Source: Emiliania huxleyi CCMP1516 (taxonomy: Eukaryota). From it: a DNA stretch of 52,631 nt. Positions 9,596-41,922 of the stretch are shown piece by piece; the first letter of the stretch is position 1; every line of letters starts with the position of its first letter. Made by a program: the position numbers and the translations under genes. The notes under the pieces were generated by a model. The model made no database searches and was not told the origin of the DNA. It saw only the letters and a program-made list of their open reading frames with translations. The DNA is taken from assembly GCF_000372725.1 (NCBI RefSeq), contig NW_005201392.1, positions 987,620 through 1,040,250 on the forward strand. Direction: 5' to 3'.

Positions 9596-10086
9596 TCGCG
9601 GCGATTGGCTCCGCAGTCGAGCATGCGTTGGGGCTGGCCTGCGGTGGCGTGGCCGTGCCTCGTGTGAGCTCCGCACAGCGTGTGGCAGCATTTGCGATTT
9701 GGGTGTGGTTGTGGGGAGGGGGGGGCGGGGGGGGTGAAATCGGCACAAAGCCGGAACCGCCACTCCATGTCCAGTCGTGAGTTGGGTTTGTGAACGCGAA
9801 CGGTAGAGTTCAATCGCGATCCGCTGTCCGCCTGAGTGTGTAGACTCATAAAGAGAAAGGTGTGGTCACTCTTGGGTAGTGGTCTTGGTACTTGGAGCGC
9901 GCACTCGCTTTTCTGAGTTTCTTGTTTGTTGTTTCAAAAAAATAAAGCCGAAAGCCGTAGAATCGTTCCGGCTTCCGCGAGCGCTGCGCCGTGCGCGTAG
10001 AGCGTGTGAAGGCCTCGAGATATCTTATTTGTAATAACGTAACTCTCTCGCACAATCCTCAGTCCTAGTCCCAGCATCTAGGATCC

Positions 10087-13000
10087 CTACACAGACTTGC
10101 GCGGCTGGGGCGAGGGCGAACCCGGCAATAGGTACCCGTCGAAATCCAGAGCGGCGTACGCCTTGCGCTCGCCGCGACGACCTCTCCTCGGGCTCCTGTC
10201 GCGGCTCGAAATGCTGCTGCCGCCGCCGCCGCCGCCGCCACCCGCCCACGGCCTTCGGCCGGATGCGACCCCACTGCCCGCGGGCGAGGAGAAAACGGCC
10301 TGCAAACGCTCAATCACCGAGACGAGGCCGGCATCGCTCAGGCCCCCGGCAGCATCGCTCAGCCGCGCAGTCGCCTGAGCAATCTCTGCCAGCGCGGCCT
10401 CCACAGGCCAGACGCGCAGCCCACCGGCAAGTAGCCCACTGCCCTCGCTTGCGCGACCCTCCGGTGGCAGCCGCCGGCGCGACCCGCCCGTCTGCCGCGG
10501 TGACGCAAGCGACGAGCTCAGCGGCGCGAGGTCAGGCGCCGCGGGCGAATCCGCCTTGACGAGTCGCGCCTGCTGGCTCGGCTTGAGCGATCGCAACTCT
10601 GCGAGCAGCGCCCCGACGGTGGTGTCGCGCAGGCGGCACGCCGCCCACTGAATGTTTGTGGGCACGCCTCCGAGCCGAGCAATGAGCTCGTGCCGCCGCA
10701 GCGCCGTGAGCACGTCGGCGGGCGCGGACGAGCCAGCCGCGCGTTCCGCGGCCTCGTCAAGCAGCTCCGCCGCGTCGAGCTCGCGCTCTGTCAGCTCGAT
10801 CAGCAAGAGCGCCGCGTCCCGCTCGCTCATCGGCGCGAGGGTGATGGAGTAGATCGAGACGGGCGTCGTCATCCGCGCGTCGTCGTCCGCGTCGTGAGCA
10901 GCGGCGAAGTCATCGGCCGCGAGCAGCGAGGACGAGTTGGAGCAGAGGAGCAGACGCACGCCCGCAGAGAGGAGCGAGTGGAGGAAGAAGACGAACTGTG
11001 GCCGCGAAGCGTTGATGGCCGCCTCGCACCGGTCGAGGATAAGGAGGCAACAATTGTACTGGGCGAGGTGCGTCGAGAGCTCATCGTTCGACCGCGCCGG
11101 GAAATGCAGAGTCGCGCCGAGCCGGGCGCGCACGCGGTCCGTCCTTCGCAGCCCCTCGAGCGAGCAGCAAAAGATGCCGTGCGGGAACGCGCCGCGCTGG
11201 CGCAAGTAGGCCGCCGCCTCGAGGATAAGGGCAGACTTCCCGTACCCTTTGGCCCCGTAGACGCAGGTGATCTGGTTGGTGAGGCACGAGTGGAGCAGCT
11301 CGTGCAGCTCGAGGTGCCGACCCACAAACGCTGCCCCGTGTGCCAGTTGCTCGCTGGCCGCGGCCTCAGCCTCCTCGGCCCCTCCGACGGCCACACGGCC
11401 TCCCGCAGCACCACGACCGCCGCGCAACTCACGCCGAGAGGAGGATGCGGCGAGGCCGAACTCTGCGGCGGCGGCCGCCGGTGGGGGCAGCGACGGACTG
11501 CCCCCGTCGTCGGTGACGTAGGGCAGGTTCCAAGGGCAGAGCTTCGGGCTCACGTCGATCAGCTCCCCCGGAGGAGGGAGCGGGCCCAGCGACGCGGCAG
11601 CGCCAATGAGGACAAAACCACCCGCCACCGGGGCGTGGAGGGACGCGCTTGCAGCCTCGAAGGCCTCGCGCGGCGCCGCGCCGCGCAGCAGCGCCGTGTA
11701 GAAGGCGGCAGAAAAGGCGGTGACGTCCGCCTCGGGGAGGAAGCCGCGCAAGGCCACCACCGTCTCGCAGCCCGCCTCGAGAAACGCGCGGCCGGCGGGC
11801 TCAGACCCGCGCGCGGTGAGAAAGACGAGAGAAGGGGTGCTGGGTGCGGCGGCGAGCATCGCACGCAGCTCCTCCAGAGGCAACGGCGACAGCTCGCCCG
11901 CGTCCGCCTCGAGCGCTAGGCCCCCAGCATAGTCGGGCGCGGGCAGCAAGTGGAGCATCGGCCGATCCTGCTGGTCGAGCGCCGCGGCGAGCGTGCGCCG
12001 GGTCAAAATCTCTAGCTGCACCTGCAGCGAGACGCCGAGCGGCGAGAGGGCCTCGAGGAGCGCACGCCAGCAGCGAACCCCCGCCCTCTTCGGGAAAGCG
12101 ACCGGCCCCCAACTACCGTCGCCGCCCGTTGGTGATGCCCGGGTCGCGTCGCCGTCGCTGGGCCTGTCGCCGGCAAGGCTGTGGCCAGCCGGCGCCCATG
12201 CGACGAGCGGCGCGGCGTCGAGCACCAACAGCCGGCCAGCGCCGCGGCCCTGCGCACGCGCGCGTTGGAGCAGCGCGCGCCGGACCGCCTCGCCGGCGGC
12301 CCGCGACTCCTGCGCGCGTAGGCCGTCGCCGCGCTGCTGCCACAGCCCCGCGGCGAGCTGTAGCTGCTCGCGCGCGCCATCAAGGTCGCCGAGCGCCGCG
12401 CGCGCCTTGCCGCGTAGCTCAATGACCGCGGGGTCGGTGGTGCCGCACTCCCCCAACATGTCGACGGCGCGGCGTGGCTCGCCGCGAATCAGAGCGAGCT
12501 TGGCCAGCCCGACGGTCGCCGCCCTCCAATGCTCATGGTCCTCATCGCCACCCTCGTCGGCGCCGTCACCACCGCGGTCTCCGCTGTGCTCTTCCGTGCC
12601 TCCTGCCCGCCCGTTGCCCCCGTCTCCGCCCACATTGGGGAAGCAAGCTAGAGGAGAGCGCAGCCGACGAAGCACCTAAGAGTGGAGGTCGGCGTTGGGG
12701 CGCGAGGGTGTGTGCGGGGAGAGCGCGCAGCGGGGGAAGTGCAGAGGCACCTCGCGGTAGAGGTTGTCTGCACGCGCCAGATCCGCGGCGTGCGCCTCCC
12801 GCGAGCGCGGCGACATCTGGCCGCGCGCCAGGGAGAGCGCAAAGGGTGCGGCGAGCTGCGGGCTGCTGAGGAGCCCTGCGCTCGCGCGCCGCCAAAGGCT
12901 GTCGCTGGCCCCTGCAGCGGCTGAGTCGGCAAGCCCACCGTGAGGTCGCTGAGACAGCCTCTCGGCCACAGTGAGGTCGTTGAGGCCAGCGACGATGGCG

Positions 13001-16000
13001 TCGTCCATTTGGTTGAGCTTGTCCTTGATGTAGCTGTCGCCCAGCATGAGCAGCGCACGCACGAGCCCAGAGACCCACCGGCGGCCCCGCTCCGACCCCG
13101 AGGCCATGAGCGCAACCTGCCGCCAGAGCCCCGCTGGCCCTTCGACCGCCGCACCTGGCGTGAAAGTGGTGGCGAGCAGTGGCGACTCAGCCGGCTGCGC
13201 ATCGCTCGCCACGCCGCCCGAGAGGCTGCCTGTGGCTGGCGGCGGCGAGCCCGTGCAGCAAGACGAGTCATGCCGCCCGAGAGGGAGCGCTGGCCAAGTC
13301 TGCGAGAGGAACGAGCCCGCACTAGCGCCGCCGCCGGTGGCGCTGGCGGCGCTGGCGGCGGGGCTGTCGTCGCCGCAGCCGGGTGGATGCAAGCCGGACG
13401 GGGCAAAGCCCGACGACTGGCGAGAGAGACTGGGGAAGAGCGTCGCGTCAAGGAGGAGGGGATCGCCACCTCCAACCGCCGCTCCAACCGCCACCTCCTC
13501 GGCGGCGTCAGCGTCGCGTTCTCCGCCGCCCTCGGAGCGGTGCGCGGCGTCGTCGTCGTTTCCGCCGCTGCCGTAGCCGGAGTCGGAGGCGTTCGACCCT
13601 TTGCCGCCCTCGGGCTCGGCCTCGGAGTAAGCGAGCACCGCGGCGGACAGCACCTCCTGCACCGCCGACATGTCCTCTCCGAGCTGCAGCATCTGATCGC
13701 CAAGGAGGAGCCGAAGCTCGCCCAGCCGCGCGGGCGGCACCTCGAGCACCTGCAGCGCGTCGAGTGTGCGGCGCGCGGCCGATGCCGACTCCTCCCTCCG
13801 GCCGAGCAACGCGAGGATGCGAGCGAGGGCCTCGCCCACGCGTGCAGTGTGCCGCACTAAGGAGCTCGCCCCACCGCCGCCACTGCCGATGTCGCCGATG
13901 ACGCTGCCACCACCGCCGACGCTGTCGGAGAGCGACGACGTGATACTGAGCGCCTCGGAGCAATCGCCGGGCGCCGCGCCGCTGGCGCGAATCAGCTGCA
14001 GCCGCTCGTCGGTGAGGCATGCCCACAGGTTTGGCGCGAGCACCTCGGTGAAAAACTTGCGCCAGCGCGCCAAATCCTCGCCGCCCTCGACGCCCTCGCT
14101 CACCCCGTCGGCAATCTCGCCGCCCTGTGTGGTGGAGCTCCTCCGACCGGAGGGACTACCCGATGTCGCGGGCAGCGCAAACGAGGTGTGCCCCGGTGCT
14201 GCCATGGCCTCGCTACGGGCGTTGGCCTCGAGCAACGCGACAAAGCGTTCGCCGAGAGTGGCGAGCCGGCGCGCGCAGCGGCCCGCGAGCAAGCGCATCG
14301 GCGGCGTCGGCAGGAGCGGATCGAGCACCCCGTGGTCGAGCTCCGAGATGTAAGAGGTCAGGAGCTCGGACATGCCCGCCTCGTGGCGCGGGCTATCGCC
14401 GCCGCGCGGCGACATCGCTGGCCGTCGCTCGGGCGGTGAGGCTGCCGCACCGAGTTGGAGGGTGCGGCGGCGGACGAGCCAGCGAGCGTCGGCGGGCGGG
14501 CCAATCGGCGCCGCCTCTGGCGGCTGATCGGGCCGCTGCACCAAATGCTGCATGAGCGGCCCCCACGGCGGCGGCGGTGGCAGCTCAGCCTCGGCGGAGG
14601 GAGAGCCGCCGCCCTGCACCGCCTCGGCGATCACCTGCGCGACACCTTCATCCGCGCTACTACTCCATAGGGCGTCGAGGTCGGCGGGCGTGGCGCCGCC
14701 AGGAAGGAGAGAGAGGAGCGCAAGGAGCGAGTACGCAGCGGCGTTGTGCTGGCGGAGCAGACCGAGCAGCACCTGCACCGACCGGCGCTGCGATTCGTGC
14801 AGCGCCTCGGAGGGCGTGCCGGCGCCGCCTGCTCCGGCGATGGCGCTGCTGCTCTCGCCGTCCCCGCCGTCTCCGTCGTCGCGGTCTCCACCCGAGCAGT
14901 GCGTGCTGGCGTATACCGCGCTGGGCTCGGCCACTGGTGGCGTCGCCGTGCTGTCGCCCACCCGTTGCTCGCCCGACTCCTCCAGCGGTATTGTCAGGAA
15001 CACGCGTGGGGTTTCCTCCGGCCCCTCCGGTGGGGTGGTGTCGGCCCCGCCTGCCGCACTGCTGCGATCGCCTCCACCGGCACCGCCGGCACCACGGCGC
15101 TCCTCGCGAGCGGGTCCGGAGGAGGGCGTCGCTGTGACTCCATCTGGAGGACGCGGCACACCCTCCGAGTCGGCAGAGCTGCGGCCAGACCCCAGCGCAG
15201 AACCAGGCGCGCTCCGGCGACGCGGCTGCGAGGAAACGCCAGCGCCTCCGCGAGGCTCGTCAGCGTGCCACGCCCCGCGCGCAAAGACCGGGTCCGAGGC
15301 TGAGGCGACTTGCACAGCCACAGAGGCGAGGGCTGACACCACGGGTGGAGGCGGCGGCGAGGCACTCGCGGCACCGCCGGCTGACGCGAGGGTGGTCTGC
15401 GTGTCCTTCGACACGGCTCTCGCCGCCATGGGCTGCCCGCCGTGATCAGCTGCTTGGTCCATGTCGGCAGGCGCTAGCGGCGCCGCCAGCGCTAGCGGCG
15501 CCTGCGCCCTCGCCGGCGCCCTGAGCAGCTCCCGCTCAAGCTCCGCCAGCGAGACGCCCGAGCGCAGCAGCGGCGCGTTCTGGCATATGGCGCCCGGCAG
15601 CCCGGCGAGCGCTCGGAGCACCGGGTGGCCGATGAGCGCGCCGGGCGGTCGCAGATCCGGCGGGAGCACCTCGAGGGCGAGCTCGCGGAAGAGTCGTGCC
15701 GCGTCGTACTCGGAGAGCGGAGACACGTCGATCAGCCGCTCGCCCTGCGATCCGTTGAAGACGCCACTTCGTTGCCGCGCGGTGCACAGCACGCGCAGCT
15801 CCTTTGTGGCGAGCAGCTTTGCGACGAGCGCCTGGACGCCCTTGCAGTCACAGCCGTCGTCGACGTTGTCGAGGATCAGCAAGCCGCGCCACAGCTTGAG
15901 CCCCCGCGAGACGTCGGGCAGCGACCGGAGCTCCATATCGAGCGCCTCGGTGAGCGCCGCGAGCGCCTCCGACTGGGAGCGCCGCCCTGCAAGCTCGACG

Positions 16001-18034
16001 CAGACGCACCCGTCGGGGAACCAGCGCCGCTCGTAGAGGTGACCCGCGGCGGCGATCGCAAGGCTCGTCTTGCCTACGGAAGTGTCTCGGAAGTGTCTCG
16101 GAAGTGCCTTGGAAGTGTCTCGGCAATGTCTCCGAGGCTCGTCTTGCCTACCCCTGGCGCGCCGGTCAGCGTGAGCAGCCGGACCTCCTTATTCCGCTTG
16201 CGGCCGAGGGTGAGCACGAGCTCGCGCAGCTCTACTGCGCGGCCTGTTCACAGCTCGAGGTGTGAAGAGACGCTATTCACAGCTAGAGGGCGCAGCTCTA
16301 CGGCGCGGCCGAGGAAGGGCTTCGGCAGGTAGGGCGGCTCGAGGCCCGGCAGCGGGTTCCGCTCGAGGGGCTCGCCCGGCCACAGCGAGCCGGGCGGGAA
16401 GAGGACCGCCTCGTGCGGGTCCCTGGGAGGGGGAGGCGGCATCGAGAGCCGGCCGCCGGCCGACGCGCGCGCGGGTGGCGGCGCCGGCAGCAGGATGAAC
16501 TTTGCCGCCTCGGCCGCCGGGTGGAGCATCCTCGCCGAAGGGGCAGTGCCGGCGAGCGCGGCGGTGCCCATCTCGAAGGCGGCGCGGACGGAGTTGCCCT
16601 GCACCAGCGCAAGGTAGAGGTGGCGCGCAAAGAGCGCCTACGCCGTGCAAGACAGCCGGGGCCGTGAGCACGGCATCGCGCCGTAGACTCCTAGCACCGC
16701 GTGAATACACGAGTGCAGTGAGCACCGCTCAATGCAGCTGGATACGGCTGAGTGCGGGAGTCCTTAAGATGGGGAGATGTGGGGAGATGTGGGGAGATGT
16801 GGGGAGATGTGGGGATCCGTGCTCCGCATCTAGTGGCGAGCGCCGCAGCGTCGTCGAGCACCTTTGCATCCGCGCGCACACCGACGACATGGGGGACGCC
16901 GCACGCGGCGAAGACCTCCGCGGCCGGCTGCGAGTGGCACGCCGACACGAAGACGAGCCGCGTGCCTCGCACCAGGTTGGCTGGCGCGAGCAGCGCGTGC
17001 AGCCGGTCGAGCGAGAGCTGGTCGAGCGAGCCCTCGTCGTCCTCGAAGCCGAGGAAGAAGGCGCCGGTCTCCTCGTCGATGTCGCCGTGGCAGACGAGGT
17101 GGAGCATGAGCGGCTGCAGCGCGAGCATCTCGCCGAGCGCGGCGCTGCTCGCGACGCCGGAGGACAGCGTGAGGTGCTTGCGCGCGCGCCGCAGCACGTC
17201 CAGCAGCGCCTTGACCTCGCCCTTAAAGTCCAGGGTGAGTGCCTGGTGGTCGAGGGGCAGGATGCGCCGGTTCTTCCTCCAGACCAGCGGCGCCGCGTGA
17301 AGCAGCGCGAGCTCGAGCCGCCCGCCACCCGTGTACAGCGCGCTGCCGCCAAAGCCGTAGAGCGCGCCCGCCGCGTAGCCTCCGGGCGCGGGCGACTGCT
17401 GATCCGGCACCGAGTGCGCCCCCCCGGAGGGCTGGGAGCGGAATCGCGCGACCTGCGGCTCGGGCGCCGCCGACGTCGAGGCCAGCGAGTGCTCGCGGCG
17501 CAGGATGCCACTCGGCAAGCGCTGGCACTGATCGAGGGGCGAGGATGCCTCTGCGCCCGGCCCGGCTGCCAAGGCGGGAGATTCGCGGCACGACAGCTGG
17601 CGGTGCGATGCCGCCTCGCCAGAGGTTATGGAGTCAGAATGACAGCCAAGCAGCATGTCCGAGGCGCGGCGAGGCGGCCGAGGCGTCGTCATCGACGAGG
17701 AGCGCTCCGAGCACGGCGGCGGGGTCGGCTCGCGGACGAGGGCGCTAGGCGTCAGCGGGAGCAGAGGAGCCATCTCAGCCCGCAGCTCGAGAAGCCGCGC
17801 CGACCCGACCTGCGAGCATCCCTCCAGCGGAAGTACCGCGCCGATGAGGGACCATGCCTCAAAGACGCTGTCGAATGCTCGCACAGCCTTGAGCCTCGTC
17901 GTGTCGACGCCGTCCGCCTGCAGCAGGGCGATCACCTGCTCCGCGGAGATGACGTCCTCAGCCCAGTTGACGCGCAGCAGCAACCGGGTCGGGTCGGCTC
18001 CGAGAGTGTAGCGGAGAGCAAGCTCGGCCACCAT
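10087..18034 (-). CDS. NLR-like tandem CHAT-STAND protein (CHAT, NB-ARC-like NTPase, TPR, degenerate CHAT, second NTPase); ~2508 aa, 5 exons
   Basis: Exons 16844-18034, 16310-16637, 16148-16243, 12751-16073 and 10087-12675 join in frame. CHAT dyad LHLVCHG / LVFVSACHS. NTPase 1: FLGRAVEL, GAPGVGKT, FPDG, LLILDNVD. NTPase 2: FVGRHLEL, GAKGYGKS, FPHG, LLILDRCE. TPR-like helices lie between the two modules. Confidence 0.85.
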
Positions 18035-18348
18035 GTGCACCGATTTTTTTCATCAAACGCCACCGTTAGGACCGTCCTCTCGTTTCTTTCTCTCTTTACA
18101 TCGGCTGGCTAACGGCAATAACACAGGCACTGGAAAGTTTACGCTTCCTCCAGCAGGCCTCCGGCACATCGATATGCAGTTCGGGCTCGAGTGAGGGCCG
18201 CGGTTGCGCGGGGCCGGGCTACGGGGGGCCTTGCTCGGGCTGCCGAGAGTGATAAAAAAAATCCATTGCCGTTGCGGACAAAGAGCCCGCTCGACGCCAC
18301 GATAGCCAACGCGCGCGGACAAGAACCCGCTCGTTCTCGCGCTGGCGC

Positions 18349-20331
18349 ATGCAGGCGCCCGCGCGGATCCGAGGCGCGGACTTTGCGCAGCCCTGGCATG
18401 CTGACGCTGCCGAGCGTCAGGTGCTCGAGGCTGAGCGGCGGCACTCCACGCTCATGATGACAGCCGCTGCGGACGGGGCCTGGCGCGCCGTGAGCCACCG
18501 CACGCAACGCGCAGACGACATCCTTGCCATCCAGGATCGCAACCGGATCTTGCAGGTAGAGCTCAATCGCCTGCGTGAGGAGAAGGCCACGGTCGAGGCG
18601 GAGGCGCAAGCCTTCAAGCAGAGGATGGAGTCGGCCGTGAGCAGCTTCGAGGTCATCATCGAGCAGGCGGTCCAGGAGAAGGCCAACACCTTCCAGCAGC
18701 TGGTGGAAACGAGGCAGCGGCTCAAGCAATCCCAGCGGCAGCAGCGCACCGCTGCCGCCAAGGCGGGCCCGAAGCAGCTCACGAGGGTGTTCAGGATCTG
18801 CGAGAGCCGGGACACAGCGGTCGCCCTCGCTCGCTGGCGTGGCTTTGCCGGCGAGCTACGCCACGAACGCGCTGCGGAGAAAATCGCGAGCTTCGAGGCG
18901 GCAGCCCGGGAGCCGGTACGTGAGAGGGAGGAGGAGGAGCTGCTGCGGTCGCAGCTGCAGTGCGCCGTGCAGCGGCTGGCAGCGGCAGACGGGGCGCGCG
19001 AGGAGGAGCAGCGCAAGGCCGAGGAGGCTCGGTCGGCACGGGCGGAGGCGGAGGAGCGCTTGGCGGGCGCGCGGGTTGATTTGGCCGAGTCCAAAGAGTC
19101 GTTGCGCTCCCTGCGCGCGGCCTTCAGCGCCGAGTCCGTGGCTCTCAGCGGCGAATCTACGGCGCTTGCGCGGCGGGCGTCCGAGCTGCAGGGCCAGCTT
19201 GCGGACGCGGAGCACCGCGCCGCACAAGCCAACGAGCGTGCTTGCGAGCTGCAGGCCGAATTAGAGAGGCGCGCTGAGACGTGGTCGCTGGCGGCGCCGG
19301 GCAAGGTCGACCTGATGCGACAGATGCTGCACGAGCAGCAGGAGGAGCTGGCCGAGGCGCGCCGCTTCTCGGCGGCCTGCAAGCTCGTCACAGCCGTCGG
19401 GCGGCGCGACACCCTCTCGCTGTCGACGGCGCTCGGCGCCTGGCGCCGCGCGTGCTCAGAGATGGGCCGCGCTGAGCTGCGCGAACAGCTTGCGGCGACG
19501 GCCGCGCGGGAGCAGCAACGCACAGCGGAGCTGCACGCGCAGCTGTCTGCGTCTGAGGGGCGCGTCGGCGCTGAGACGTGGTCGCTAGCGGCGCCGGGCA
19601 AGGTCGGCCTGATGCGACAGATGCTGCACGAGCAGCAGGAGGAGCTGGCCGAGGCGCGCCGCTTCTCGGCGGCCTGCAAGCTCGTCACAGCCGTCGGGCG
19701 GCGCGACACCCTCTCGCTGTCGACAGCGCTCGGCGCCTGGCGCCGCGCGTGCTCAGAGATGGGCCGCGCTGAGCTGCGCGAACAGCTTGCGGCGACGGCC
19801 GCGCGGGAGCAGCAACGCACAGCGGAGCTGCACGCGCAGCTGTCTGCGTCTGAGGGGCGCGTCGGCGCTGAGACGTGGTCGCTGGCGGCGCCGGGCAAGG
19901 TCGGCCTGATGCGACAGATGCTGCACGAGCAGCAGGAGGAGCTGGCCGAGGCGCGCCGCTTCTCGGCGGCCTGCAAGCTCGTCACAGCCGTCGGGCGGCG
20001 CGACACCCTCTCGCTGTCGACGGCGCTCGGCGCCTGGCGCCGCGCGTGTTTGCTGGCTCGTGAGGCGGATCTGAGGCATACTCCCCGTCTCGCGAAACCA
20101 GCAGCTGAAGGGCTGCCGTTCATCCCGCTCGCGTCGTTGGGCGAGGCTGCTGCCGGCATCAGCCGCGATTCCCCGGGGCGCAGCTCGCCTCCGTCGCAGC
20201 CGCCCTCGGGTTCTCTCGCATCTCCACCCTCGCGGCTGCCGCCCTCGCAGCTTCGCCCGCGTCAAGTCTCTCCAACCGCCGGCGACACGCCGAGCACGCT
20301 TCCCACAATGCATTCGCTCGAAACCCTGTGA
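18349..20331 (+). CDS. Coiled-coil protein with 99-aa internal repeats and L-x-x-W-R motifs (Sfi1/POC5-like)
   Basis: 660-aa open frame with E/Q/R/A heptads; divergent from the NLR-like gene. Confidence 0.7.
   Translation: MQAPARIRGADFAQPWHADAAERQVLEAERRHSTLMMTAAADGAWRAVSHRTQRADDILAIQDRNRILQVELNRLREEKATVEAEAQAFKQRMESAVSSFEVIIEQAVQEKANTFQQLVETRQRLKQSQRQQRTAAAKAGPKQLTRVFRICESRDTAVALARWRGFAGELRHERAAEKIASFEAAAREPVREREEEELLRSQLQCAVQRLAAADGAREEEQRKAEEARSARAEAEERLAGARVDLAESKESLRSLRAAFSAESVALSGESTALARRASELQGQLADAEHRAAQANERACELQAELERRAETWSLAAPGKVDLMRQMLHEQQEELAEARRFSAACKLVTAVGRRDTLSLSTALGAWRRACSEMGRAELREQLAATAAREQQRTAELHAQLSASEGRVGAETWSLAAPGKVGLMRQMLHEQQEELAEARRFSAACKLVTAVGRRDTLSLSTALGAWRRACSEMGRAELREQLAATAAREQQRTAELHAQLSASEGRVGAETWSLAAPGKVGLMRQMLHEQQEELAEARRFSAACKLVTAVGRRDTLSLSTALGAWRRACLLAREADLRHTPRLAKPAAEGLPFIPLASLGEAAAGISRDSPGRSSPPSQPPSGSLASPPSRLPPSQLRPRQVSPTAGDTPSTLPTMHSLETL
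19271..20047 (+). repeat. In-frame 297-bp tandem repeat, about 2.6 copies
   Basis: GCTGAGACGTGGTCGCT.GCGGCGCCGGGCAAGG at 19273, 19570 and 19867; only a few substitutions between copies. Confidence 0.95.
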
Positions 20332-23251: not shown

Positions 23252-26200
23252 TCACACCTTTTCCGAACCCTCCCCTTCTGTGGAAGTGGAAGGCGATCCC
23301 GCGGCGCCATCTATCGCCCGGCACAACGGACATGCATTGGAGCTCGTGCTCGATCGCGCCTGCGTGATCATGCAGCGGGCATGGAAACGGTGACCGCAAG
23401 ATAAGGTGTAGCACGCCAGGTTGCCCGTCGCTGTCGCGACTAGCGGGTCAAGGCAAATGGCACAAGCTTCAGCCGCGTCTGATGGCGAGCTGAGGGCCCT
23501 GACGATCAATATGTCGGGGCGTCCCTGCGCCTGCACTGCAGCTGCTTCCGGGGCAATAGGGACGGCCGATACAGCCTGCACGATCGCACTCTGCAAGTGT
23601 TGCGTCCCGGCCGGCGTGGCCGCGTCGATGCACAGCCTGGGTTTGCGTTCCAGCAAGCCGCGTCGACTGACGGCCGTGCCAGCAGCAACTGCGGAGGAGA
23701 TCGTCGTGACAGCAGGTGGGGGCTGCTCGAGCAACGGTGGGGTAGGCCAAACGCGAAGCGCTCGGTCGCCGCCACCCGTTGCAACGTGGTCTCCATTGGG
23801 CGAATATGCAACCGCGCGAAGGACTCCACTGTGTGCGTCTGTCCTCTCGAGGACGGGCGACGACAAGTCGGAGGCGGCGTCCCACACGCGGAGCGCCCCG
23901 TCGCCGCCGACCGTAGCGAGGCGGCTCCCGTCGGGCGAGTAGGCGACCGAGTAGATGCCGCTGGTGGTGGCTCTCTCCATGAGGGGCGACGACAAGTCAG
24001 AGGCGGCGTCCCACACGCGCAGCGCCCTGTCGGTGCCGCCCGTGGCGATGCGGGTGCCGTCGGGCGAGAAGGCGACTGCGCGGACTCGGGCGCCGTGCGC
24101 ATCCGCTCTCTCCATGAGGGGCGACGCCAGGTCTAAGGAGGCGGCGTCCCACACGCGCAGCGCCCTGTCGTCGCCGACTGTGGCGAGGCGACAACCGTCG
24201 ACGGAGAAGGAAACTGAGTAGATGGCGCTCGTGTGCGCGTCCACTCCTACCACGAGGGGCGATGCCAGGTCCGAGGCGTCCCACACGCGCAGCGCCCCGT
24301 CGTCGCCGACCGTGGCGATGCGGCTGCCGTCGGGCGAGTATGCGACCGAGTAGATGGCGCTGCTGTGTGCGTTCGGCTTCTCCAGAGGCGGCGAGGACAG
24401 GTCCGAGGCGTCCCACACGCGCAGCGCCCCGTCGCTGCCGCCGGTGGCAATGCGGGTGCCGTCGGGCAAGAACACGACGGAGAAGATGTCGCCCCTGTGA
24501 GCCGTGGCTTGTTGAATGCTAGGCGACGACAGGTCTGAGGAGGCGTCCCATACACGCAAAGCGCTGTCGCTGCCGACTGTTGCGACGCGGCTGCCGTCGG
24601 GCGAGTACGCGACCGAGAAGACGCTGCCCTGCCGCCTTCTTGCAGCAGCAAGGACCAGGGAGCAGCAGCAGAGGCAGGTCGACATACAGATGCCAAGTAT
24701 TAGAGGCAGCCGCAAGTTGTCACTGCCAGTGTCGACGAGAGGGAGCGCACTTCGCTCCAACGGGAGGTACGGGGGTGGGATCAGCGGCGGAGGCGCCGGC
24801 GCCGGTATGATGCCCTGGCAGAAGAGCAGCCCGTCCGGAGCAGTCAACGGAATGAGCTGCCCCGACTCGTCGGGCCTCTGGCAGTAGTCGTGCTCGTAGA
24901 AGATGTCGGTGATGAAGCCCCGGTCCGCGCAGAACTTGACGTGCATGAAGTCGCGGTTCTGCTCCTCTCTCGACAGCCCCAGGCACGCTCTCTCGTACAC
25001 CGCCTGCGCCCCCGGATCGGGCGGCAGGAGCAGCGCCTGCACCTCGGGCGGCTGACGGGCGTAGTAGTCGCACATGTCGATCGGCGCCAGCCACACCGGC
25101 CGGAAGTCGGGGTCTTCGCAGCCGCACTCGCCGTCTCGCGTCGCCGGCCGCCGCACTGGCCACGAGCTGTTTGGCTGGCTTATGGCGGCGTAGAAGGTGT
25201 TGACGGTGTCGAGCGCAGTGGAGGAGGAGTTGGCCAGCGCGTCGTAGTCGAAGAAGATGTTGCAGGGGCAGTCCACCTCCTCGTTGCTCTGCGTGGGCCC
25301 AACAGGCCCGATGTCGGTGCCGCACATCATGGCGCCGTCGCGGGCAAGGCGTGGGTAGAGCGTGAAGTTGTTCGCCGCCTCGGGCACGCAGTACTCCTTG
25401 CTGAGGTAGTAGTTGTAGCGCACAAAGGCGGGCGTCGCGCACAGCCGGACGTGATGGTAGTACTCATTGACCTGCTCGCCCGGCGCAAAGGCGGAGCAGG
25501 TGCGATTATACGACTCCTGCAGCTGCCCCGACGTGAAGAGCACGTCTCGCTGCGTCGCGTTGAGGGTGTCGAACCAGAAGCACAGGTCGAGGGCGGCCAG
25601 CCAGACGGGGCGGTCCTCGGCGCTCTCGCACGCGCAGCCCCACTTCGGGTCGTACACGGGGAGGCTGAGCGGCCAGGCGTCGTTGGTCTGGAGGACGAAG
25701 AAGAGCGCGTTGGTGTCGTTGAGGAAGGAGGGGGAGTTCGCTGTGCCGCCATCCAGGTCGTAGTAGGGCGAGCATGAGCAGGGCGGCGAGGGCGAAGGAG
25801 GCGAGGACGGTGGAGGCGAGGGCGGCGGCGGCGAGGGTGGAGGCGGCGAGGGCGGAGGAGGCGAGGGCGGCGGCGGCGAGGGCGGAGGCGGCGAGGGCGG
25901 CGGAGGCGAGGGCGGTCGATGCGAGGGCGGAGGAGGCGAGGGCGGTGGAGGCGAGGGCGGTGGAGGCGAGGGCGGAGGCGGCGAGGGCGGAGGAAGCGAG
26001 GGCGGAGGCGGCGAGGGCGGAGGCGGCGAGGGCGGAGGTGGAGAGGACGGAGGTGGACTTGGTGGCGGCGCTGAAGGAGGCGGCGGCGATGGAGGCGGCG
26101 GGCTCGGCGGGGGCCTTGGCGGCACCGGGCTGGAAGGTGGCGGCGAGGGAGGCGGCGGCGAGGGTGGGGAAGGCGAGGGCGGCGGCGACCCTGGTGGTGG

Positions 26201-32059: not shown

Positions 32060-32497
32060 GGCCGAGCGTTTTTGATCTCTGGGTGAGTGGGCGCCCGCCC
32101 GCCGCCTCTGAGGGGGTCGGGCCCCCTAGACTGAAAACAAAAACAAGCTCGAAAACAGCCAAAATCAGCCTGCGAGAGTCTGCCCGAGAGAGAGAGGCAC
32201 TGCGCGCCGCTGACCTCATGTGGGGATGTGTGCCGACACCATATACTGATCTAAAACCTGGAAACCCTTGTTCAAAGAAGACCCTAAGCGCCATCCTTCC
32301 TGCTCTCACCTGATCGCTGATGCTGCTTCCCCGCGCCGCCTCCTTGGCCCCCTTGGGCGTATTTTCTACTCCCAGTGGGGGGACCGGGCCCCGGGCCCCC
32401 TCTTGTTTTCTGTTTTCTGTTTTTCAAAACGCCCGCCCGCCCGCCACCCCGAGGCGGCTCGGCCCCCCACTCACCCAGAGATCAAAAACGCTCGGCC
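32060..32497. mobile_element. MITE, PIF/Harbinger (Tourist)-like
   Basis: 32-bp perfect terminal inverted repeats GGCCGAGCGTTTTTGATCTCTGGGTGAGTGGG; 3-bp target-site duplication CTA (32057-32059 and 32498-32500); no transposase ORF. Confidence 0.85.
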
Positions 32498-32947
32498 CTA
32501 TTGACATATATATTGATATTGATCGCACCTCTAACTATTGGAGAGCAATATATATGTTCAATATTTCCCGTGGTCCTTTTTATCTCATCCATAGCCGTTT
32601 AGTTTTAAGTTTAGTTTTTCCACTATTGCGCTTTCGTTCATCCCAAACGACGAGAAAACGTGCAACGATCTCTTCGAGCGAGTTCTACAGGAGACACTCA
32701 CCCCGGATGGGCCGCCACATACACGACATGCAAACGACGCAACATGCACAGGCCATGCAGCGTGTGTCCTCGGTCCAAGCACCAAGGGGTGTCGCTCCCG
32801 GCCTCTTGGTGTGCTTGCCGAGGCGCCCACCACACTGCCACCACGAAGCTCAGAGAGAGGCGCGCCGCCCGCTCCACGCTGGGTGTCGCCTCTCCCGCTG
32901 AGTCGTCGCGACCTAGGTCGCCACTAGTGAACCGAACTGTCCCCCCA

Positions 32948-35900
32948 CTACTCTTTGACCACGCGCGGCGACGACACCGACCTCACCATGCGATGGAAGA
33001 AGCCCGCCTTCTTCATCTTCTCCGACGCGTCGTCCTGCCGCGCCTTCTCCTGCCGCAGCTTCTCCTCGATCTGAGACGTCACGTCCGGCGTTGCCGTGCG
33101 CGGCTCCTGCCCAATCACCCGCGGCGGCTCCTCCACATCGAGCGCGTCTCGCGCGGTGCCGCCGGGTGGCACGTGGAGGCGCAGCTGCTTGGGATTGGCC
33201 AGCCGGCGGCGGCCGGCGGCGGCCGCGTGCGGATCTGCGGCGGCCTCCGCCTTGCCCGCCGGGGCAACGGGGGGGGCTCCGCCGCCCCCTGCCGCCGCCG
33301 CCGCCTCCACCTCCAGCGTGCCGACGTCGGCGACGTCGGGCGCCGCCTCGCCCTCAATCGACGTCTTGCCGCTGCCGCGGCGCCGCGACTCCGACTGGTT
33401 TGCGTCGACGGGAGCGAGGGGCTCCGCCTTCGAAACGGCAACTTCCACGGCGGTCTCGGCGAGCCTGCGCCGCAAGCCGTTGATGCCATCGCGCAATTCG
33501 TCGTTTGTCTGCGTGACGTCGAGCGCCTTCAGCGCGCCCTCCATCTTCAGACCGCGGTCGGGCGTCGCCACCTCAAGCAAGCGCGATGCCGCCTCGCCCG
33601 CGCCCGCGAGCGTCGCGTCCGGCATCGGCGCCGGCAGCAGGACCGCGGCCGACGCCTTGGGCCCCTCGGGCGCCTTGGGCCCCTCCGGCGCGCGCCTCCC
33701 CTTCCGGGAGAGCCGGTCGATGAGAGGCTCCTTGTTTCGCTCCTTGAGCGCATCCGACTCAGGCGTCAAGCCCGCGGCGGGCTCGAGCGCGGCCGCCGAG
33801 CGGCAGATGGCGCTCGGGCTCGGACGGCGCGCGACCGAGGAGCGGCGCGAACGGCGCGTGGCCATCCCTGGCTCCATTTCCACCGCGTCAAACATGCCCG
33901 ACGTGGCCGCTGCCGCCGTGGAGACGCGTGACGGCCGGCGCAGCGGTCGCGCCTCGTCCGTCTCCATCCAGTCTTCGTCGGACGTCTCCCCCACAGCATC
34001 CGACTCGGACTCCGACTCGTCCGACTCGTCCGACTCGGACTCGGGCATCTCGCGGGTCCGCCTCCGAGCCTGGTGCGCGCGCTCGAGGATTCGCATCTGC
34101 ATCTTCTCCTCCTCCTCCTCTGAGCCGCGACGTGCCGGCGCCGGCGCCGGCGGCGCGCGTGCAGCGGTCGCCACCTGCGCCTGGAGCGCAGCGTTGGCCT
34201 CCTGCAGCGCCTTGATCTCTGCTGCGTCGCGCGCGGCCTGTCGCCTGCCCTCTGAACGCTCCCGCATCAGCTGCAGCCTCACGGTGTTGGTGGTGTCGCG
34301 CGCCGCCTGAGTGGGCCGGGGCGGGAGACGTCACAGTGCGTCCGCGGAGACGTGTGCTCTACGAGCCGGAGATGTGTTGGTGGAGCCGCGCGCAGCTACA
34401 GCTACAGGGGAGAGGCCACGGGCATGGGCACAGGTTCGTGCCTGGAGGCCCTCCTCCTTGTGCGCGAGCTGCGCCTTGCCGGCGTGCAGCGCCGTGAAAG
34501 CCTACACGCTGATTACGCCAACCTCAAGGCGGGAGTACGGTATTGTGCAGTGTACTCAGAGCACCGCGTGAATACACACGGGCTACGAATACAATGGATA
34601 CAGCGGAGTACGGTAGAATGCAGTTGACTTCGTGTCCTCTCGTTGGAAAACAAGGATACGCATTCCGCTTCTGGGGGTGAGGGCCTGGACACTCTGGTCG
34701 AACGCGCAGTGCAGCAGCGACCTCGCGAGCTGCAGCTGCGAGATCGTCTCGATCTTGACGTGCGCGAGGTCTGTGGGAGGGGTGCCGGATGAGGTCAATG
34801 AACGACGCTACCACTGCGGAGTTGGCGACTCCCGTCGGTCGTGTCGGCGTGCGTGAGGGCGGCACTGTGAGGGCGGCACTGGAGGCGGCGCCCGAGGTCT
34901 CATGGGTCTAGCAAACCATAAACCAAAGCGGCGGAGGGGAGAGGTGCAGTGGATGGACATATGTCGAGTGTGTCGAGAGGCAGGTGGGCGCATCGCCCGC
35001 ACTCACCGTCCTTTGCCGAGAGCTTCTGGTTGTGCTCGCAGATCTCGCGGTTGAGCGCCTGTTTGCAGGCGCAACATGGCGGCCACAGTCGTGGGTGCGC
35101 TGTGCCGAACACACCCAGTGGCAGCGGAGCGGAGCGCACCTCGCGGCGAGCCTTGAGCTCCTCGAGCTCACGCGGCGTGTTTTCCGACGCTGCGCCCTCC
35201 TTGAGCTGGCTCTCCTGCAGTTGCCACGGGCAATCGAGTGAGTGCGGGTGAGGAGAGGAAGGGGGCTGTGCGCGCGCGCTGTGTACGCCTCGCCATCACC
35301 TCTCAGTCGCCTCCCGCCCACCACACAGGCGACTTATGTTTTGATGTTGGATTCCACCCGAGAGGATGCTCCGGGTGCGTCTTGCGGTTCTCTCCCTGTC
35401 CCTCTGCCTGTCATGTGCATGTCTGCTGCTGCCTGTCGTGTGTGATGTCGGTCGTCTGGGGGGTGGGGTGGGGTGGGGTGGGGTGCTCCTTGGCGACAAT
35501 GTCAAGGTTGCACCGGCGGCGCTCCTCGACGAGCACCTCTTTGGAGTCGCGCAGCTTTTGGTGGTCCACCGCGACGCTCACTTGCTCCGTGAACCACTCC
35601 TTGGCCTACAACATGTGTAGGAAGTGTCTAGGAAGTATCTAGGGAGGACTTGCTCCGTGAACCACTCCTTGGCCTACGCGCTGAGTGCACCAGCCTCGGG
35701 GCGGGAAGCACGGTCTCGTGCAGAGTCTTCCAGAGTACCGTGTGAATACGAGCGACACGAGTACAGCCGAATACGGTCGAGTACAGCGGAATACGTGTCC
35801 TCTCGAGCGCTGGTTGGAGTACAAGGATGCGTCCTTCCGCTTCTAGGCCGCTTTGCCGGCCGTCCGTTGACCGACTTCGTGTCGCCGTGCCCGCGCCGCT

Positions 35901-36092: not shown

Positions 36093-39000
36093 ACCACCTG
36101 CGCGGCCATCGTCGTCTTGCGGGCCACATTGGGCAGGTTCTGGTCGATAGCCGTCACCTGCAACAGGGAGCCGGAGGAGCCGGGCTCAGGAGCCCCTCCA
36201 ACCCCTCGCGGATAGCCTGGCCGTGATCTTTGACGGACCTTGCCCGGTGCTCCCCACGCGGGGCGGCTGACTAGCGGCGCTCCGCCGCCCCGAGGAGCCT
36301 CGGGTGCGGCGCCCAGCCGGCCGTGCTGCCCGCGCTTGTGCAGCGCAATGACCTCCTCGTTCTTGCGCTTGAGCACGGCGCCCTGCCTTGCGTGGTCCTG
36401 CTGCAGCCGGTCCAGCTGCGCCGCCGTCCTCTCCCCCTTGCGGCGCAGATTGGCCAGCTCGCGCTCGCGCGCCTGGCAGCAGTGGCGGCAACGGCGGTGG
36501 TCAACGGCGCCGGCTCGGAGCGGCAAGTGGCGACGGCGGCGGCGGGTGAAGGAAGAAGGTGGCGGCATGGGCCCGGGGCTCCCCCCCCCCGCGGCCCAGA
36601 CCCCAACTTCGCGTTGCCGCTAGGGCTGCCATGAGTTCGCTAGGGTTGTATGTGCGCTGGCAACAGCGGAGCTCGCTGGGCGCTCGCAAGTTAGATCGGG
36701 GCGCCTGGTGCTGCGCGCGGTGCGAGTCCGCCTCGTCGCGCATTCGGCGCGTGAGCGCCACCTTTTGCGCCTTGATCGTGCTGATCTCCTGTCCGAGCTC
36801 CTGCAGACAAGAGGGGCCGCCGAAGAGTTTGTTGGAAGGGGAAGGGGGAAAGGGGAAAGGGGAAGGGGGGAGAAAGGTANNNNNNNNNNNNNNNNNNNNN
36901 NNNNNNNNNNNNNNNNNNNNNNNNNNNNNNNNNNNNNNNNNNNNNNNNNNNNNNNNNNNNNNNNNNNNNNNNNNNNNNNGGGAGGGGGGGGGGGGGGGGA
37001 GGGGCCAAAGCAGGGAGGCCGAAGGAGAGCCTGGCGCCTGGACGCGGCGCTCTGCATGCACGCGCGCGTTGAGAAGCGCCCGCTGCTGCGACTGCTGGTT
37101 GCGCAGCGACTTGAGCTGGGCCTCCGCCGCCTGCGGGGGCGACGAGACGGGAGTGGGTGTGTCGCAGGAGTGGTGGACGTGCCTCGTGGTGTGAGGCGGG
37201 GTGAGCCTAGGGGTGAGCCTAGGGTAGCGATCTCCCTGCCTGCGTACGAGCTCGTTGCTAGAGCTCGCACTAGAGGCCGTCATCGCATTCGCCTTCCTGG
37301 GACCCAGTGCTGACTTCTGACTGTCGTTGCTGTCTCTTCCTTCTCGACTGTCTGTGCTTGTGCGTCTTGGGGCCCGGGGTTGTGTTTTGCGTGAGGCGGT
37401 TGTGTCGCGGCGTGTCTGTTTTGGGGGAGGCCACACGTGGTCTCAGGGCGCGCCTCGAGCTTGCGCGCAAACTGCTCCCGCAGCGCACTGGTCTTGGCAT
37501 CGCTCCTCTCCTGCAGCTCCGACATCTTTTTCGCCAGCTCGTCGCGCTCGCGCCTTTAAGTAATGGCCATTCATGGTCATGGATGATCATGAATATTTAA
37601 TTCAATTAGGCACTCGTCGCGCTCGCGCCCCGTCTCGCGCACCGACGTCTCGAGGGCTGCGAGGGCGCGCTGCAGCTCCTCGAGCTCTTCGGCTGTCGCA
37701 GGTCCCGACTGCTGCGACTCGGCGAGCAGCTCTTGCTTCAGCGCCAACGTCTCGGTGAGGCCCGCGAGAGCCTGGTTGCGCAACCAGTCCGGCGGTCACG
37801 GGATCCCGAGGCTCCGCTTCGCCGCGCGGATCACAGCGGCATCTCGGTGCATCGGGCATCTCGGGGCATCTCGCCGCCGGGGGGAGGAGGCTGGGTGAGA
37901 GCAGCGGTCGAGAGCAGTGGCAGTGGGGCGGGTGTGCTGGGGGGGGGGGGGGGGGTAGTGTGCAGAGACGTAGACGGAGCACAGAGGCAGAGGGCGGCCG
38001 CGCGCCGTTCACATCGATCTCGGGTAATCTCGGGTAATCTCGGGTAATCTCGGGCGGGTTAATCTCGGGCGGCCGCGCGCCTCCGACATCGACTCCTGCT
38101 TTTGCAGGAACTCGAGCTCCTCCTCGAGCTGCTCCGCCTACCACCAGCCAGCTGACGTTGCCGTGCCGCCGCCGCGATGTAAGGCGCGGCGCGGCGCCAC
38201 GCAGCGCTCACGCCTTGTACTCCAGGTCCTCCGCGCTCGCTTCCTCCTCCGTCGACCCGTCCGACTCCCGCCCACCAGAGGGCGAGTCCGCGCCGGCGGC
38301 GGCGGCCTCGCCCGCGGCGGCGCAGTCGTCTCCGGTGGCCGATGCTCTGATGCTAGCCCGCATCGCGTTGAGCTTTTGCTGCAGCGCGTGGCAACGGTGG
38401 AGCGCGAGGTCGGAGGGCGTAGCGATGGCCGCCCCGGTCGCCGCGAAGCACGGCGCGAGCGCAGACTGCCCAGAGATGGAGAAGGTCGCTAGCGGAGGCA
38501 ACGGTCCGCCGCCCGACTCGTAGTGCTGCAGCCGCGCGGTGAGGGTCGCTACCTGCTCGAGCAGCGAGATATGGGGAGATATGGGGAGATATGGGGAGAT
38601 ATGGGTCGCCACCTGCTCGAGCAGATCCGCACTCATTAAATAGTATGCTAATTAACATTCAATGAGGGTCTCCACCTGCTCGAGCAGATCCGCGATGCGG
38701 GCCTGCACCGGGTCCTGCGCGATCAGCAGCTTGTTCTGGATCTGCCGCGCCCGGTTGGCGTACTTGAGCGTGTTGAGCGTCTCCTCCATGTCGGCGTCGC
38801 TCGGCGAGACGCACGCGATCATCAGCGTGTGCGCGTTGCCCCCGAGCGAGTCCTGCAGCAGCCGCGTCAGCTTCGAGTCGCGGTAGGGCACGTGGGCGTG
38901 CTTCTCGCACAGCGCGGAGATGACGTTGCCGAGGGCGAGCAGCCCCTGCAGAGCAGTGTGACGACCATAAGAGCCGTTGTTCTTGGCCAGCCGGTGATTC

Positions 39001-40928: not shown

Positions 40929-41922
40929 TGTTTTTTTGCCGTGTTGCTCCCAGCGCCCTCGCCCGCGCTCCCTGAGGCCATGGCTGGTGCTACTAGTATG
41001 GGGGGCTACCTGGCTACCGCGAGAGCGACCCAACTCGTCGACATCGTCCGATGATGGTGCCTCAAAGTCAGCCTCCGGAGGCTATCGTCGCGTCGAGCCG
41101 GCGGTGGCCGTGCGTGACATGTGGTTCCACCACCCCTCGTAGGCTTTGCCTCTGACCGCCACCGTTCCCAGGCTATCTGATGGGATGGAAAGGAAGGCTG
41201 GGCGAGCGTATAGAGAAGCGTGTGCGTGCGGTCGACCTCGTCGTGGCAACCTGCCACGGCACCGCTGGCAGGCGCGATGAGCGTCGTGCCACCTGACCCG
41301 AGACGGGTCGCAGGCGTCGTACCGAGCGCGTCGAGACCGTGTCCTGATGCGCTCTGCACGGGCGAGTCACGTCGGCGTCAAAAAGGAGCGACGTGTGACC
41401 TGTCAGAGCTTGATCTCCGATCTCAGCGACGTCGAATCGCAACTCTAACACTCACACGTCATTTGGGGCCTGGAGCCCTGTTCACGCGCAAATCTCCTCT
41501 CGAATCGCCTTCGGTGGCGACAGCTAGGATGCATCTCCTCGGTCGTTTTTCGCGCGATGGCCCTGAGAAGCTGGCGCCGCACGCAGGCGGACCTTGTGTG
41601 TGCGCGGGGAACGCTTTAAATTAAAAAGTGAGAGCTCTCTACGTCACTTTTTTTGAGTAGATAGTGCCGAGCTGGCCGTGACAGCGATTTTGGTAGTTTT
41701 TGGCGGGTTTTGCACCACAGACTTTTTGCACCTAGTCGGGAGATCAAAAACGCTCGGGCCTCTCGGCCCTGCGCGTCGCCAAAATAAATAAATAGAGGGG
41801 CATCTCCAGGTCTCCAGGAGCTGCTCCAGGAGAGATGCAGATGGGCGACGCACGGACACAGAGGGACAGCGCGCACCCCGCCCCGCTCGCAGGGCGTGCA
41901 TCAGAGCAATCGCATGCGCACG

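What the first reader, a model, noticed from the sequence alone, without database searches (positions are those of the whole stretch)
16061..16151. Intron in Walker A formed from a 17-bp exon duplication around an 11-bp microsatellite
Seen: on the coding strand GTAG|GCAAGACGAGCCT occurs twice (16135-16151 and 16061-16077), separated by (GAGACACTTCC)n. The first copy supplies the GC donor and the second supplies the AG acceptor, so splicing restores GAPGVGKT exactly. Inference: intron gain by target-site duplication or staggered-break repair with repeat filler, made easy by tolerance of GC donors. This is a candidate intron-generating mechanism, and it recurs in this window.
Basis: partly seen in the sequence, partly recalled or inferred. 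Interest (0 to 1): 0.7.

Follow-up and report, generated by a model that had tools for sequence, protein, structure and literature searches.

The report
Duplication-flanked inserts that become introns
This 74-base intron, spliced out in RNA and absent from the same gene in related organisms, is one of well over a hundred short filler inserts we found flanked by 11-40-base copies of the target DNA, likely left by repair of staggered DNA breaks, which would make it an example of an ongoing way of creating new introns.

Summary
The 17-bp repeat is exact, the 74-nt GC-AG intron is skipped in RNA contigs of two runs (one study), and splicing restores GAPGVGKT. Genomic orthologues at about 55% identity, and the gene's own second module, run unbroken through this site, so the intron is a gain. 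It is not a one-off. In metagenome contigs, 89 of 125 arrays of this 11-bp repeat are flanked by a target duplication (null 8 of 300; 11-36 bp after cleaning). About 100 more duplications flank other fillers (AT-rich, simple repeats, other 10-mers). Of 37 inserts inside coding sequence, 29 excise exactly as GY-AG on the coding strand (about 26% expected). One locus has an empty allele with a single target copy. So the repeat is only one filler; the constant is a long duplication plus 25-60 nt of filler, about 70 nt in all. Best reading: staggered-break repair with microhomology-primed filler, kept where GC-tolerant splicing removes it. The enzyme is unknown, and a reverse-transcriptase route is not excluded. 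Closest known: Daphnia break-repair introns (4-12 bp repeats) and introners. I found no report of this in the likely host, a coccolithophore (host inferred).

The parts
16135..16151 (-). Target copy 1 (17 bp): 4 nt exonic, then the GC donor and 13 nt intronic
16078..16134 (-). 57-nt filler, degenerate (GAGACACTTCC)x5, member of a high-copy family
   Evidence: (depth about 1e4 in this bin)
16061..16077 (-). Target copy 2 (17 bp): 4 nt intronic ending in the AG acceptor, 13 nt exonic
16074..16147 (-). 74-nt phase-1 GC-AG intron inside Walker A (GAPGV|GKT)
   Evidence: RNA joint 16060>16135 in X11 and X12; translation
16244..16309 (-). 66-nt GC-AG intron; 21-bp duplication with 1 mismatch (16290-16310 / 16224-16244); the 45-nt filler of another multi-copy family supplies the acceptor
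   Evidence: RNA joint 16236>16303 in X11 and X12, loose ends with many flanks
16638..16843 (-). 206-nt GC-AG intron with a (CACATCTCCC) array; only 7 nt match across its junctions; absent in orthologues
   Evidence: RNA joint 16631>16838
12676..12750 (-). 75-nt GT-AG intron between the two modules; 6-7 nt junction match
   Evidence: RNA joint 12671>12747
10087..18049 (-). Host gene: two tandem CHAT + STAND-type NTPase modules (exons about 18049-16844, 16637-16310, 16243-16148, 16073-12751, 12675-10087; 5' start not fixed)
35606..35673 (-). Predicted 68-nt GC-AG intron: 30-bp exact duplication (35580-35609 / 35648-35677) around the same 11-bp family; no RNA test
37554..37628 (-). Predicted 75-nt GC-AG intron: 17-bp duplication around an AT-rich filler; excision gives an open coiled-coil-like frame; no RNA test
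38553..38675 (-). Predicted compound GT-AG intron (123 nt, or 60 + 63 nt): three target copies and two different fillers; excision gives an open frame after a kinesin-like motor (kinesin label recalled from the sequence); no RNA test

Best explanation
This is a spliced intron, missing from orthologues, that was likely created when repair of a staggered DNA break duplicated 17 bp of exon and left 57 nt of filler between the copies, and it is one case of a likely genome-wide, still-active process. Steps: (1) two nicks about 15-36 nt apart on opposite strands (inferred); (2) fill-in copies the target (duplication shown, chemistry inferred); (3) 25-60 nt of filler are made in the gap, primed by short microhomology on an abundant 10-11-bp repeat or by slippage (filler and microhomology shown, template inferred); (4) in an exon the insert survives if the spliceosome finds G|GY in the first copy or the filler and AG in the second copy or the filler, so exactly one period is removed and the protein is unchanged (splicing shown at two duplication-flanked sites here, enrichment shown across loci, selection inferred). 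Tolerance of GC donors in a GC-rich genome makes step 4 easy (21 of 29 use GC).
For: Splicing. Gain: orthologues P0005 (51-kb contig) and P0003 and the internal second module lack it. Prevalence: 70 of 125 arrays have an exact flank repeat of 12 bp or more against 11 of 1500 mismatched pairs; 89 of 125 against 8 of 300 allowing mismatches; 124 pairs at period 46-130 in 165 kb against 1, 0, 1 in shuffles. Splice neutrality: 29 of 37 on the coding strand against 15 of 37 antisense (Fisher p=0.002) and about 26% null; 95 of 124 on either strand against a null mean of 56, maximum 71. In 9 of 29 the duplication spans the exon-exon junction by 6 nt or more on each side, so its template was intron-free. 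Empty allele: L003 has one copy of a 31-bp target where L085 (542 of 548 identical) has two copies and 39 nt of filler. Copies differ at only 69 of 2025 positions. Microhomology of 2 nt or more: left 27 of 78, right 20 of 78, null 7%. Locally templated extra bases in 6 of 18 long right junctions. Variable end registers, no shared element body, many filler types.
Against: No enzyme or break was observed. RNA support comes from assembled contigs of one study. 8 of 37 coding inserts have no exact GY-AG excision (2 fit GA-AG), and antisense compatibility is also above null (15 of 37, p=0.04). 16 of 53 confidently coding loci are coding on one side only, consistent with hits at old junctions (L003 is a clear case). 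The tight total length (96 of 160 pairs at 60-79 nt, 4 at 30-49) and the cap near 36-42 bp are more regular than ordinary repair scars. Microhomology of 4 nt or more is one-sided (8 of 78 left, 1 of 78 right), which fits priming on an RNA. Only 1 of 4 same-locus pairs showed an empty site, and precise loss between the repeats would look the same. Most loci come from one or two assemblies and were picked by the repeat; coding strand was called by a self-trained codon model on the excised sequence.
Confidence: 0.6

Rival explanations
1. Same outcome by target-primed reverse transcription: a LINE-like or other reverse transcriptase nicks the target and copies short RNAs (repeat transcripts, excised introns, or a heavily truncated element tail), giving variable long duplications.
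For: Variable 11-36 bp duplications with a sharp upper limit; one-sided longer microhomology, 8 of 78 against 1 of 78, with extra bases commoner at the other end, 33 against 23 of 78; fillers form families with depth about 1e4 and many flanks; inserts occur in both orientations (28 and 9 of 37).
Against: No shared body beside any of 125 arrays; no poly(A) seen; many fillers are unique-looking AT-rich or simple sequence; microhomology is also raised at the other end (20 of 78).
Confidence: 0.22
2. The duplications are secondary: they arise at or are favoured near existing splice junctions, overwriting or extending old introns, or are kept because junction-like copies help splicing.
For: 16 of 53 confidently coding loci are coding on one side only; L003's array sits at the donor of a longer intron; repeated hits at one target (window 38543-38693, and L014, L051, L056, L066, L069, L076). 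At the finding itself only 4 nt of the repeat lie upstream of the junction, mostly acceptor consensus.
Against: Orthologues and the second module lack all three module-1 introns; junction-spanning duplications need an intron-free template (9 of 29); empty allele; the intronic copy appears to drift (P0010 reads GKTSF in the first copy and GKTSL in the second).
Confidence: 0.1
3. Classical introner: a non-autonomous DNA transposon with fixed ends and a short fixed target-site duplication.
For: Multi-copy filler families with different flanks; splice sites recruited from the duplication or from the element, as in introners (PMC9860276 passages).
Against: Duplications are 11-36 bp and variable against 3-9 bp; both ends fall in any register of the unit; filler length varies from 23 to 159 nt; unrelated fillers share the same architecture.
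Confidence: 0.05
4. Assembly artefact or chance repeat.
For: Short-period arrays trouble assemblers; L025 has a chimeric-looking end; 1 of the 7 window pairs is unspliced.
Against: RNA skips exactly one period; an independent DNA run enters the intron; an independent assembly encodes a 72-nt allele of the same intron (P0010); shuffles give 0-1 pairs.
Confidence: 0.03

Closest known systems
Intron gain during staggered double-strand-break repair in Daphnia pulex (PMC4202315, passages; reviewed in PMC3443670, passages)
   Same: New intron = insert flanked by a direct repeat of adjacent exon; polymorphic; repeated hits at one site.
   Different: There 33 exon-intron repeats of 4-12 bp among 90 new introns; here 11-36 bp (median 24-27), over 100 cases in 165 kb, recurrent filler families, GC donors, total length near 70 nt.
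Tandem genomic duplication of a proto-splice site (PMC3443670, passages)
   Same: A duplicated AG|GY gives donor and acceptor with no change of protein, exactly as at 16074-16147 (AG|GC).
   Different: The duplicate alone is too short for an intron; foreign filler makes up the length, and in 12 of 29 cases supplies part or all of a splice site.
Introners (PMC9860276 passages; PMC12130899 passages; bioRxiv 10.1101/2020.10.14.339549 abstract)
   Same: Many related introns; splice sites taken from the duplication, the element or both; a Chrysochromulina family with 4-bp duplications is described.
   Different: No fixed ends, no shared body, long variable duplications, and unrelated fillers with the same architecture. 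'huxleyi' does not occur in the main text of the two papers searched; their supplements were not seen.
Interstitial telomeric repeats inserted at breaks (PMC2246262, passages)
   Same: Short tandem arrays added at break sites with 1-8 nt microhomology, sometimes with target duplication; one TTAGGG filler also occurs here (L090).
   Different: Duplication in only 6 of 130 rodent and 4 of 25 primate loci; telomere unit only; not an intron source. Here duplication is the rule and most units are not telomeric.
Small tandem duplications from fill-in of complementary 3' overhangs (PMC8355091, abstract)
   Same: Offers a chemistry for turning a staggered break into a duplication.
   Different: Mammalian cells; the abstract does not describe a 25-60 nt filler; not tested in this organism.

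Membership tests
Spliceosomal GC-AG intron | Removed from RNA at GC..AG, restoring the frame | tested here: met
   74-nt skip in X11 and X12; only the GC-AG register within the repeat restores the frame
Gained (not ancestral) intron | Absent from genomic orthologues and paralogues | tested here: met
   P0005 (51-kb contig), P0003 and the second module are contiguous; the nearest sister genera were not available
Break-repair intron (Daphnia type) | Direct repeat of adjacent exon at the other end of the intron, above background | tested here: met
Break-repair intron (Daphnia type) | Empty allele with one target copy | tested here: inconclusive
   Met at L003/L085 (1 of 4 same-locus pairs); not seen at the finding, where X8 and P0010 carry the intron
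Break-repair intron (Daphnia type) | Dependence on end-joining repair | not testable with these tools
   Needs induced breaks or mutation-accumulation lines
Tandem genomic duplication intron | Both splice sites from a duplicated AG|GY | tested here: met
   The finding; 17 of 29 coding cases
Tandem genomic duplication intron | Intron body is the duplicated exon itself | tested here: not met
   57 of 74 nt are filler
Introner (DNA transposon type) | Multi-copy family at unrelated sites | tested here: met
Introner (DNA transposon type) | Short fixed-length duplication (3-9 bp) or none | tested here: not met
   11-36 bp, variable
Introner (DNA transposon type) | Fixed element ends and end-to-end similarity | tested here: not met
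   All 11 registers occur at both ends; filler 23-159 nt
Introner (DNA transposon type) | Terminal inverted repeats | not tested
   No dedicated search; none evident in the printed fillers
Non-LTR retroposon insertion | Variable-length target duplication with microhomology at one end | tested here: inconclusive
   Variable length met; 4 nt or more in 8 of 78 left against 1 of 78 right, but 2 nt or more raised at both ends
Non-LTR retroposon insertion | Shared 5'-truncated body or autonomous partner | tested here: inconclusive
   None beside 125 arrays; no whole genome to search

The most novel reading that the evidence does not exclude
This alga has a dedicated, still-running intron-making process: an unknown nuclease-polymerase or reverse-transcriptase machine that cuts with 15-36-nt staggers, writes about 70 nt of duplication plus filler, re-uses existing introns as templates, and has produced tens of thousands of its introns without any transposon of fixed sequence.
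Probability: 0.25. Interest if true: 0.92.

Novelty: new variant of a known kind. Interest (0 to 1): 0.78.

Why it matters
Where new introns come from is a long-standing question. Recent surveys credit transposons (PMC12130899 abstract passage), and break-repair gain rests on few unambiguous cases (5 in the table of PMC3443670). Here each young intron keeps a long, datable duplication, empty alleles exist, and the class is dense: about 5 intron-forming cases in 43 kb of this window and over 100 pairs in 165 kb of repeat-selected contigs. It would make gain rate, selection for splice neutrality and the role of GC donors measurable in one species. It would also explain the 10-11-bp repeats known from Emiliania introns (recalled), and it warns that junctions with 17-30 nt of ambiguity will mislead aligners and gene models.

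Tried and rejected
No whole genome is held, so the genome-wide test rests on 126 metagenome loci from one capped scan. Viral-contig scans gave 1, 0 and 0 loci. A GT donor 4 nt upstream was rejected (frameshift). A first codon model called only 18 of 78 loci (14 compatible on the coding strand, 6 antisense) and was replaced by a self-trained one. 11 of 89 duplications were dropped as nested or array-like; 10 of 127 loci were dropped as redundant, viral or long-array; about 10 of the 109 'other filler' rows look like array or protein-repeat artefacts. A shared retroelement body was sought and not found. The 13213/13272 repeat is not an intron. The candidates at 35.6-38.7 kb have no RNA test. The joined-form count across runs was not given. 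The Emiliania genome paper was not held; PMC13508280 and PMC2784329 passages say nothing on this. Literature searches and earlier-finding look-ups returned no description of it; subscription papers and supplements were not seen. A possible 10-bp periodicity in duplication length was not clear in the wider set and is not claimed.

Full report
Observation. On the minus strand the 17-mer GTAGGCAAGACGAGCCT stands at 16135-16151 and again at 16061-16077. Between the copies lie 57 nt of a degenerate 11-bp array (5.1 copies, 86% matches). Cutting 16074-16147, which begins GC and ends AG, restores GAPGVGKTSLAIAAAG in an open frame; the nearby GT donor frameshifts. The window is about 60-75% GC and eukaryotic. 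I take it for Emiliania (Gephyrocapsa) huxleyi or a close relative from composition, GC donors and marine occurrence; no call named it. In E. huxleyi 56-65% of donors are GC (PMC4028052, passages).

Splicing. Contigs of four of the 20 listed runs were laid on 8300-19200. RNA runs X11 and X12, from one study, skip 74 nt at 16060>16135 with 17 letters fitting either side. They also skip 66 nt (16236>16303), 206 nt (16631>16838) and 75 nt (12671>12747) in this gene, and 69 and 122 nt in the neighbour; the junction overlaps are 8, 7, 6, 2 and 4 letters. 28 further joint rows were not shown. X13 shows no joint here in the listed rows. DNA run X8 enters the intron without differences. The 66-nt intron has a 21-bp duplication with one mismatch; its filler is another multi-copy family with many different flanks.

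Gain, not inheritance. The gene holds two CHAT + STAND-type NTPase modules. A search of longer proteins gave 6 hits, four of them at 55-57% identity. P0005 is one ORF on a 51,042-bp contig, so genomic. P0003 carries a 41-residue insertion just upstream of the Walker A that looks like a read-through intron of its own, so it too is likely genomic. Both are contiguous at all three module-1 intron sites, as are P0002 and P0004 (which may be transcripts) and the window's own second module. P0010, a close allele, carries the Walker A intron at 72 nt, in frame, and its first copy reads GKTSF against GKTSL in the second. So the intron is shared among close strains, varies in length and post-dates the split from those relatives.

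Genome-wide. No genome is held, so I scanned metagenome contigs for the repeat (capped, loci L002-L127, mostly from one or two assemblies). Of 159 arrays, 125 had distinct flanks of 80 nt or more. 70 of 125 have an exact repeat of 12 bp or more across the array, against 11 of 1500 mismatched pairs. With mismatches allowed it is 89 of 125 against 8 of 300. After dropping 11 nested or array-like rows, 78 remain: duplications 11-36 bp, 69 mismatches in 2025 bp, filler 23-159 nt, total mostly 61-74 nt, duplication and filler length inversely related (rho -0.54, n=69). A scan blind to filler type found 160 pairs in 117 loci (165 kb): 96 at period 60-79, only 4 at 30-49, and 124 at 46-130 against 1, 0 and 1 in shuffles. 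Other fillers include AT-rich sequence, TAA-, CTA- and TTAGGG-type runs, several 10-mers and unique sequence (109 rows, about 10 doubtful). In the window, 7 pairs were found against 0-1 in 10 shuffles; one is unspliced and one lies within an intron end. One search adds two more candidates, and three sites at 35.6-38.7 kb excise as GY-AG with open frames but have no RNA test.

Splice neutrality. With a self-trained codon model, 37 of 78 inserts have coding signal on both sides, 16 on one side, and 25 are uncalled. Of the 37, 29 excise exactly as GY-AG on the coding strand and 15 on the antisense strand; the null with random targets is about 26%. Of the 29, 17 take both sites from the duplication, 11 take the acceptor partly or wholly from the filler and 1 takes the donor from it; 21 use GC; in 9 the duplication spans the junction by 6 nt or more on each side, which needs an intron-free template. 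Across all fillers 95 of 124 are compatible on either strand against a null mean of 56. Against this, 8 of 37 have no exact excision, the antisense count is itself above null, and the one-sided class suggests that some inserts merely extend old introns.

Empty site. Of four same-locus pairs, one differs this way. L003 and L085, from different assemblies and 542 of 548 identical, encode a WD40 protein. L085 has a 31-bp target twice around 39 nt of TAT-rich filler, with AAG|GT in the target; L003 has the target once, in an open frame. L003 keeps two other duplication-flanked inserts, which argues against assembly collapse or a transcript. Precise loss between the repeats cannot be excluded, but the duplication still had to arise by insertion.

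Mechanism. Shown: long variable duplications, varied fillers, microhomology at both junctions (2 nt or more in 27 and 20 of 78, null 7%), locally copied extra bases in 6 of 18 long junctions, and any register at either end. No shared element body was found. Inferred: a staggered break, fill-in, filler synthesis primed on abundant repeats or by slippage, then survival of the splice-neutral inserts. I give this 0.60. Reverse transcription of short RNAs at a nick gets 0.22, on the one-sided longer microhomology (8 against 1 of 78) and the sharp length cap. Secondary duplication at old junctions gets 0.10 as the main story, though it clearly explains some loci. A fixed-end introner gets 0.05 and artefact 0.03.

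Known systems. It works like the Daphnia break-repair introns (repeats 4-12 bp; PMC4202315, passages) and like tandem duplication of a proto-splice site (PMC3443670, passages). It fails the fixed-end and short-duplication tests for DNA-transposon introners (PMC9860276, passages). Direct repeats near intron borders are reported broadly, mean 11.4 bp in 213 introns (PMC11782384, abstract). Telomeric inserts at breaks (PMC2246262, passages) and 3'-overhang fill-in (PMC8355091, abstract) are chemical analogues. Searches found no description for this organism. The genome paper was not held; I recall that it notes 10-11-bp repeats in introns. The species tables in the introner supplements were not seen and could list this organism.

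Verdict. Real, spliced, gained, and representative of a dense class with an unusually long and legible footprint. New variant of a known kind; interest 0.78.

Noticed in passing
window 38543-38693; L014 1614-1770, L051 2126-2350, L056 430-620, L069 3144-3310, L076 978-1170: Repeated insertion at one target: three copies of the target with two different fillers. In the window this gives two back-to-back GT-AG units (60 and 63 nt) with no exon between them, a candidate for recursive splicing.
   Followed up: partly
window 16074-16147, allele P0010: A 72-nt, in-frame, stop-free allele of the Walker A intron; retention would leave the P-loop intact and add 24 residues.
   Followed up: partly
window 16245-16289; L030, L049, L056, L074, L076, L080, L086, L108: A 45-nt multi-copy filler family with internal repeats, ending in an acceptor; the most introner-like of the fillers.
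   Followed up: partly
window 10087-18049 (-): Gene with two tandem CHAT + STAND-type NTPase modules, conserved at 55-57% in four other organisms; an immune-receptor-like architecture (likeness recalled).
   Followed up: partly
window 16680-16770, 34537-34660, 35731-35850: A longer dispersed repeat family inside introns, also seen in L030, L048, L082 and L091.
   Followed up: no
L041 1489-3200: A 1.7-kb array of the same 11-bp unit; a possible template reservoir for fillers.
   Followed up: no
window 19271-20048: 297-bp tandem repeat, 2.6 copies, 98% identical, in frame within a coiled-coil-like ORF.
   Followed up: no
window 25782-29859: About 4 kb of glycine/glutamate-coding GGC-rich repeats with strong GC skew.
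   Followed up: no
window 32092-32500 and 41730-41770: Inverted and dispersed copies of a short element end, possibly a transposon terminus.
   Followed up: no
window 44085-44900 (+) and 47990-49506 (+): ORFs resembling an iota-type carbonic anhydrase and an acyl-carrier-protein malonyltransferase (labels recalled, not tested); their introns lack long duplications.
   Followed up: no
L001 237-253: One viral-collection contig holds the 11-bp repeat; probably host DNA.
   Followed up: no
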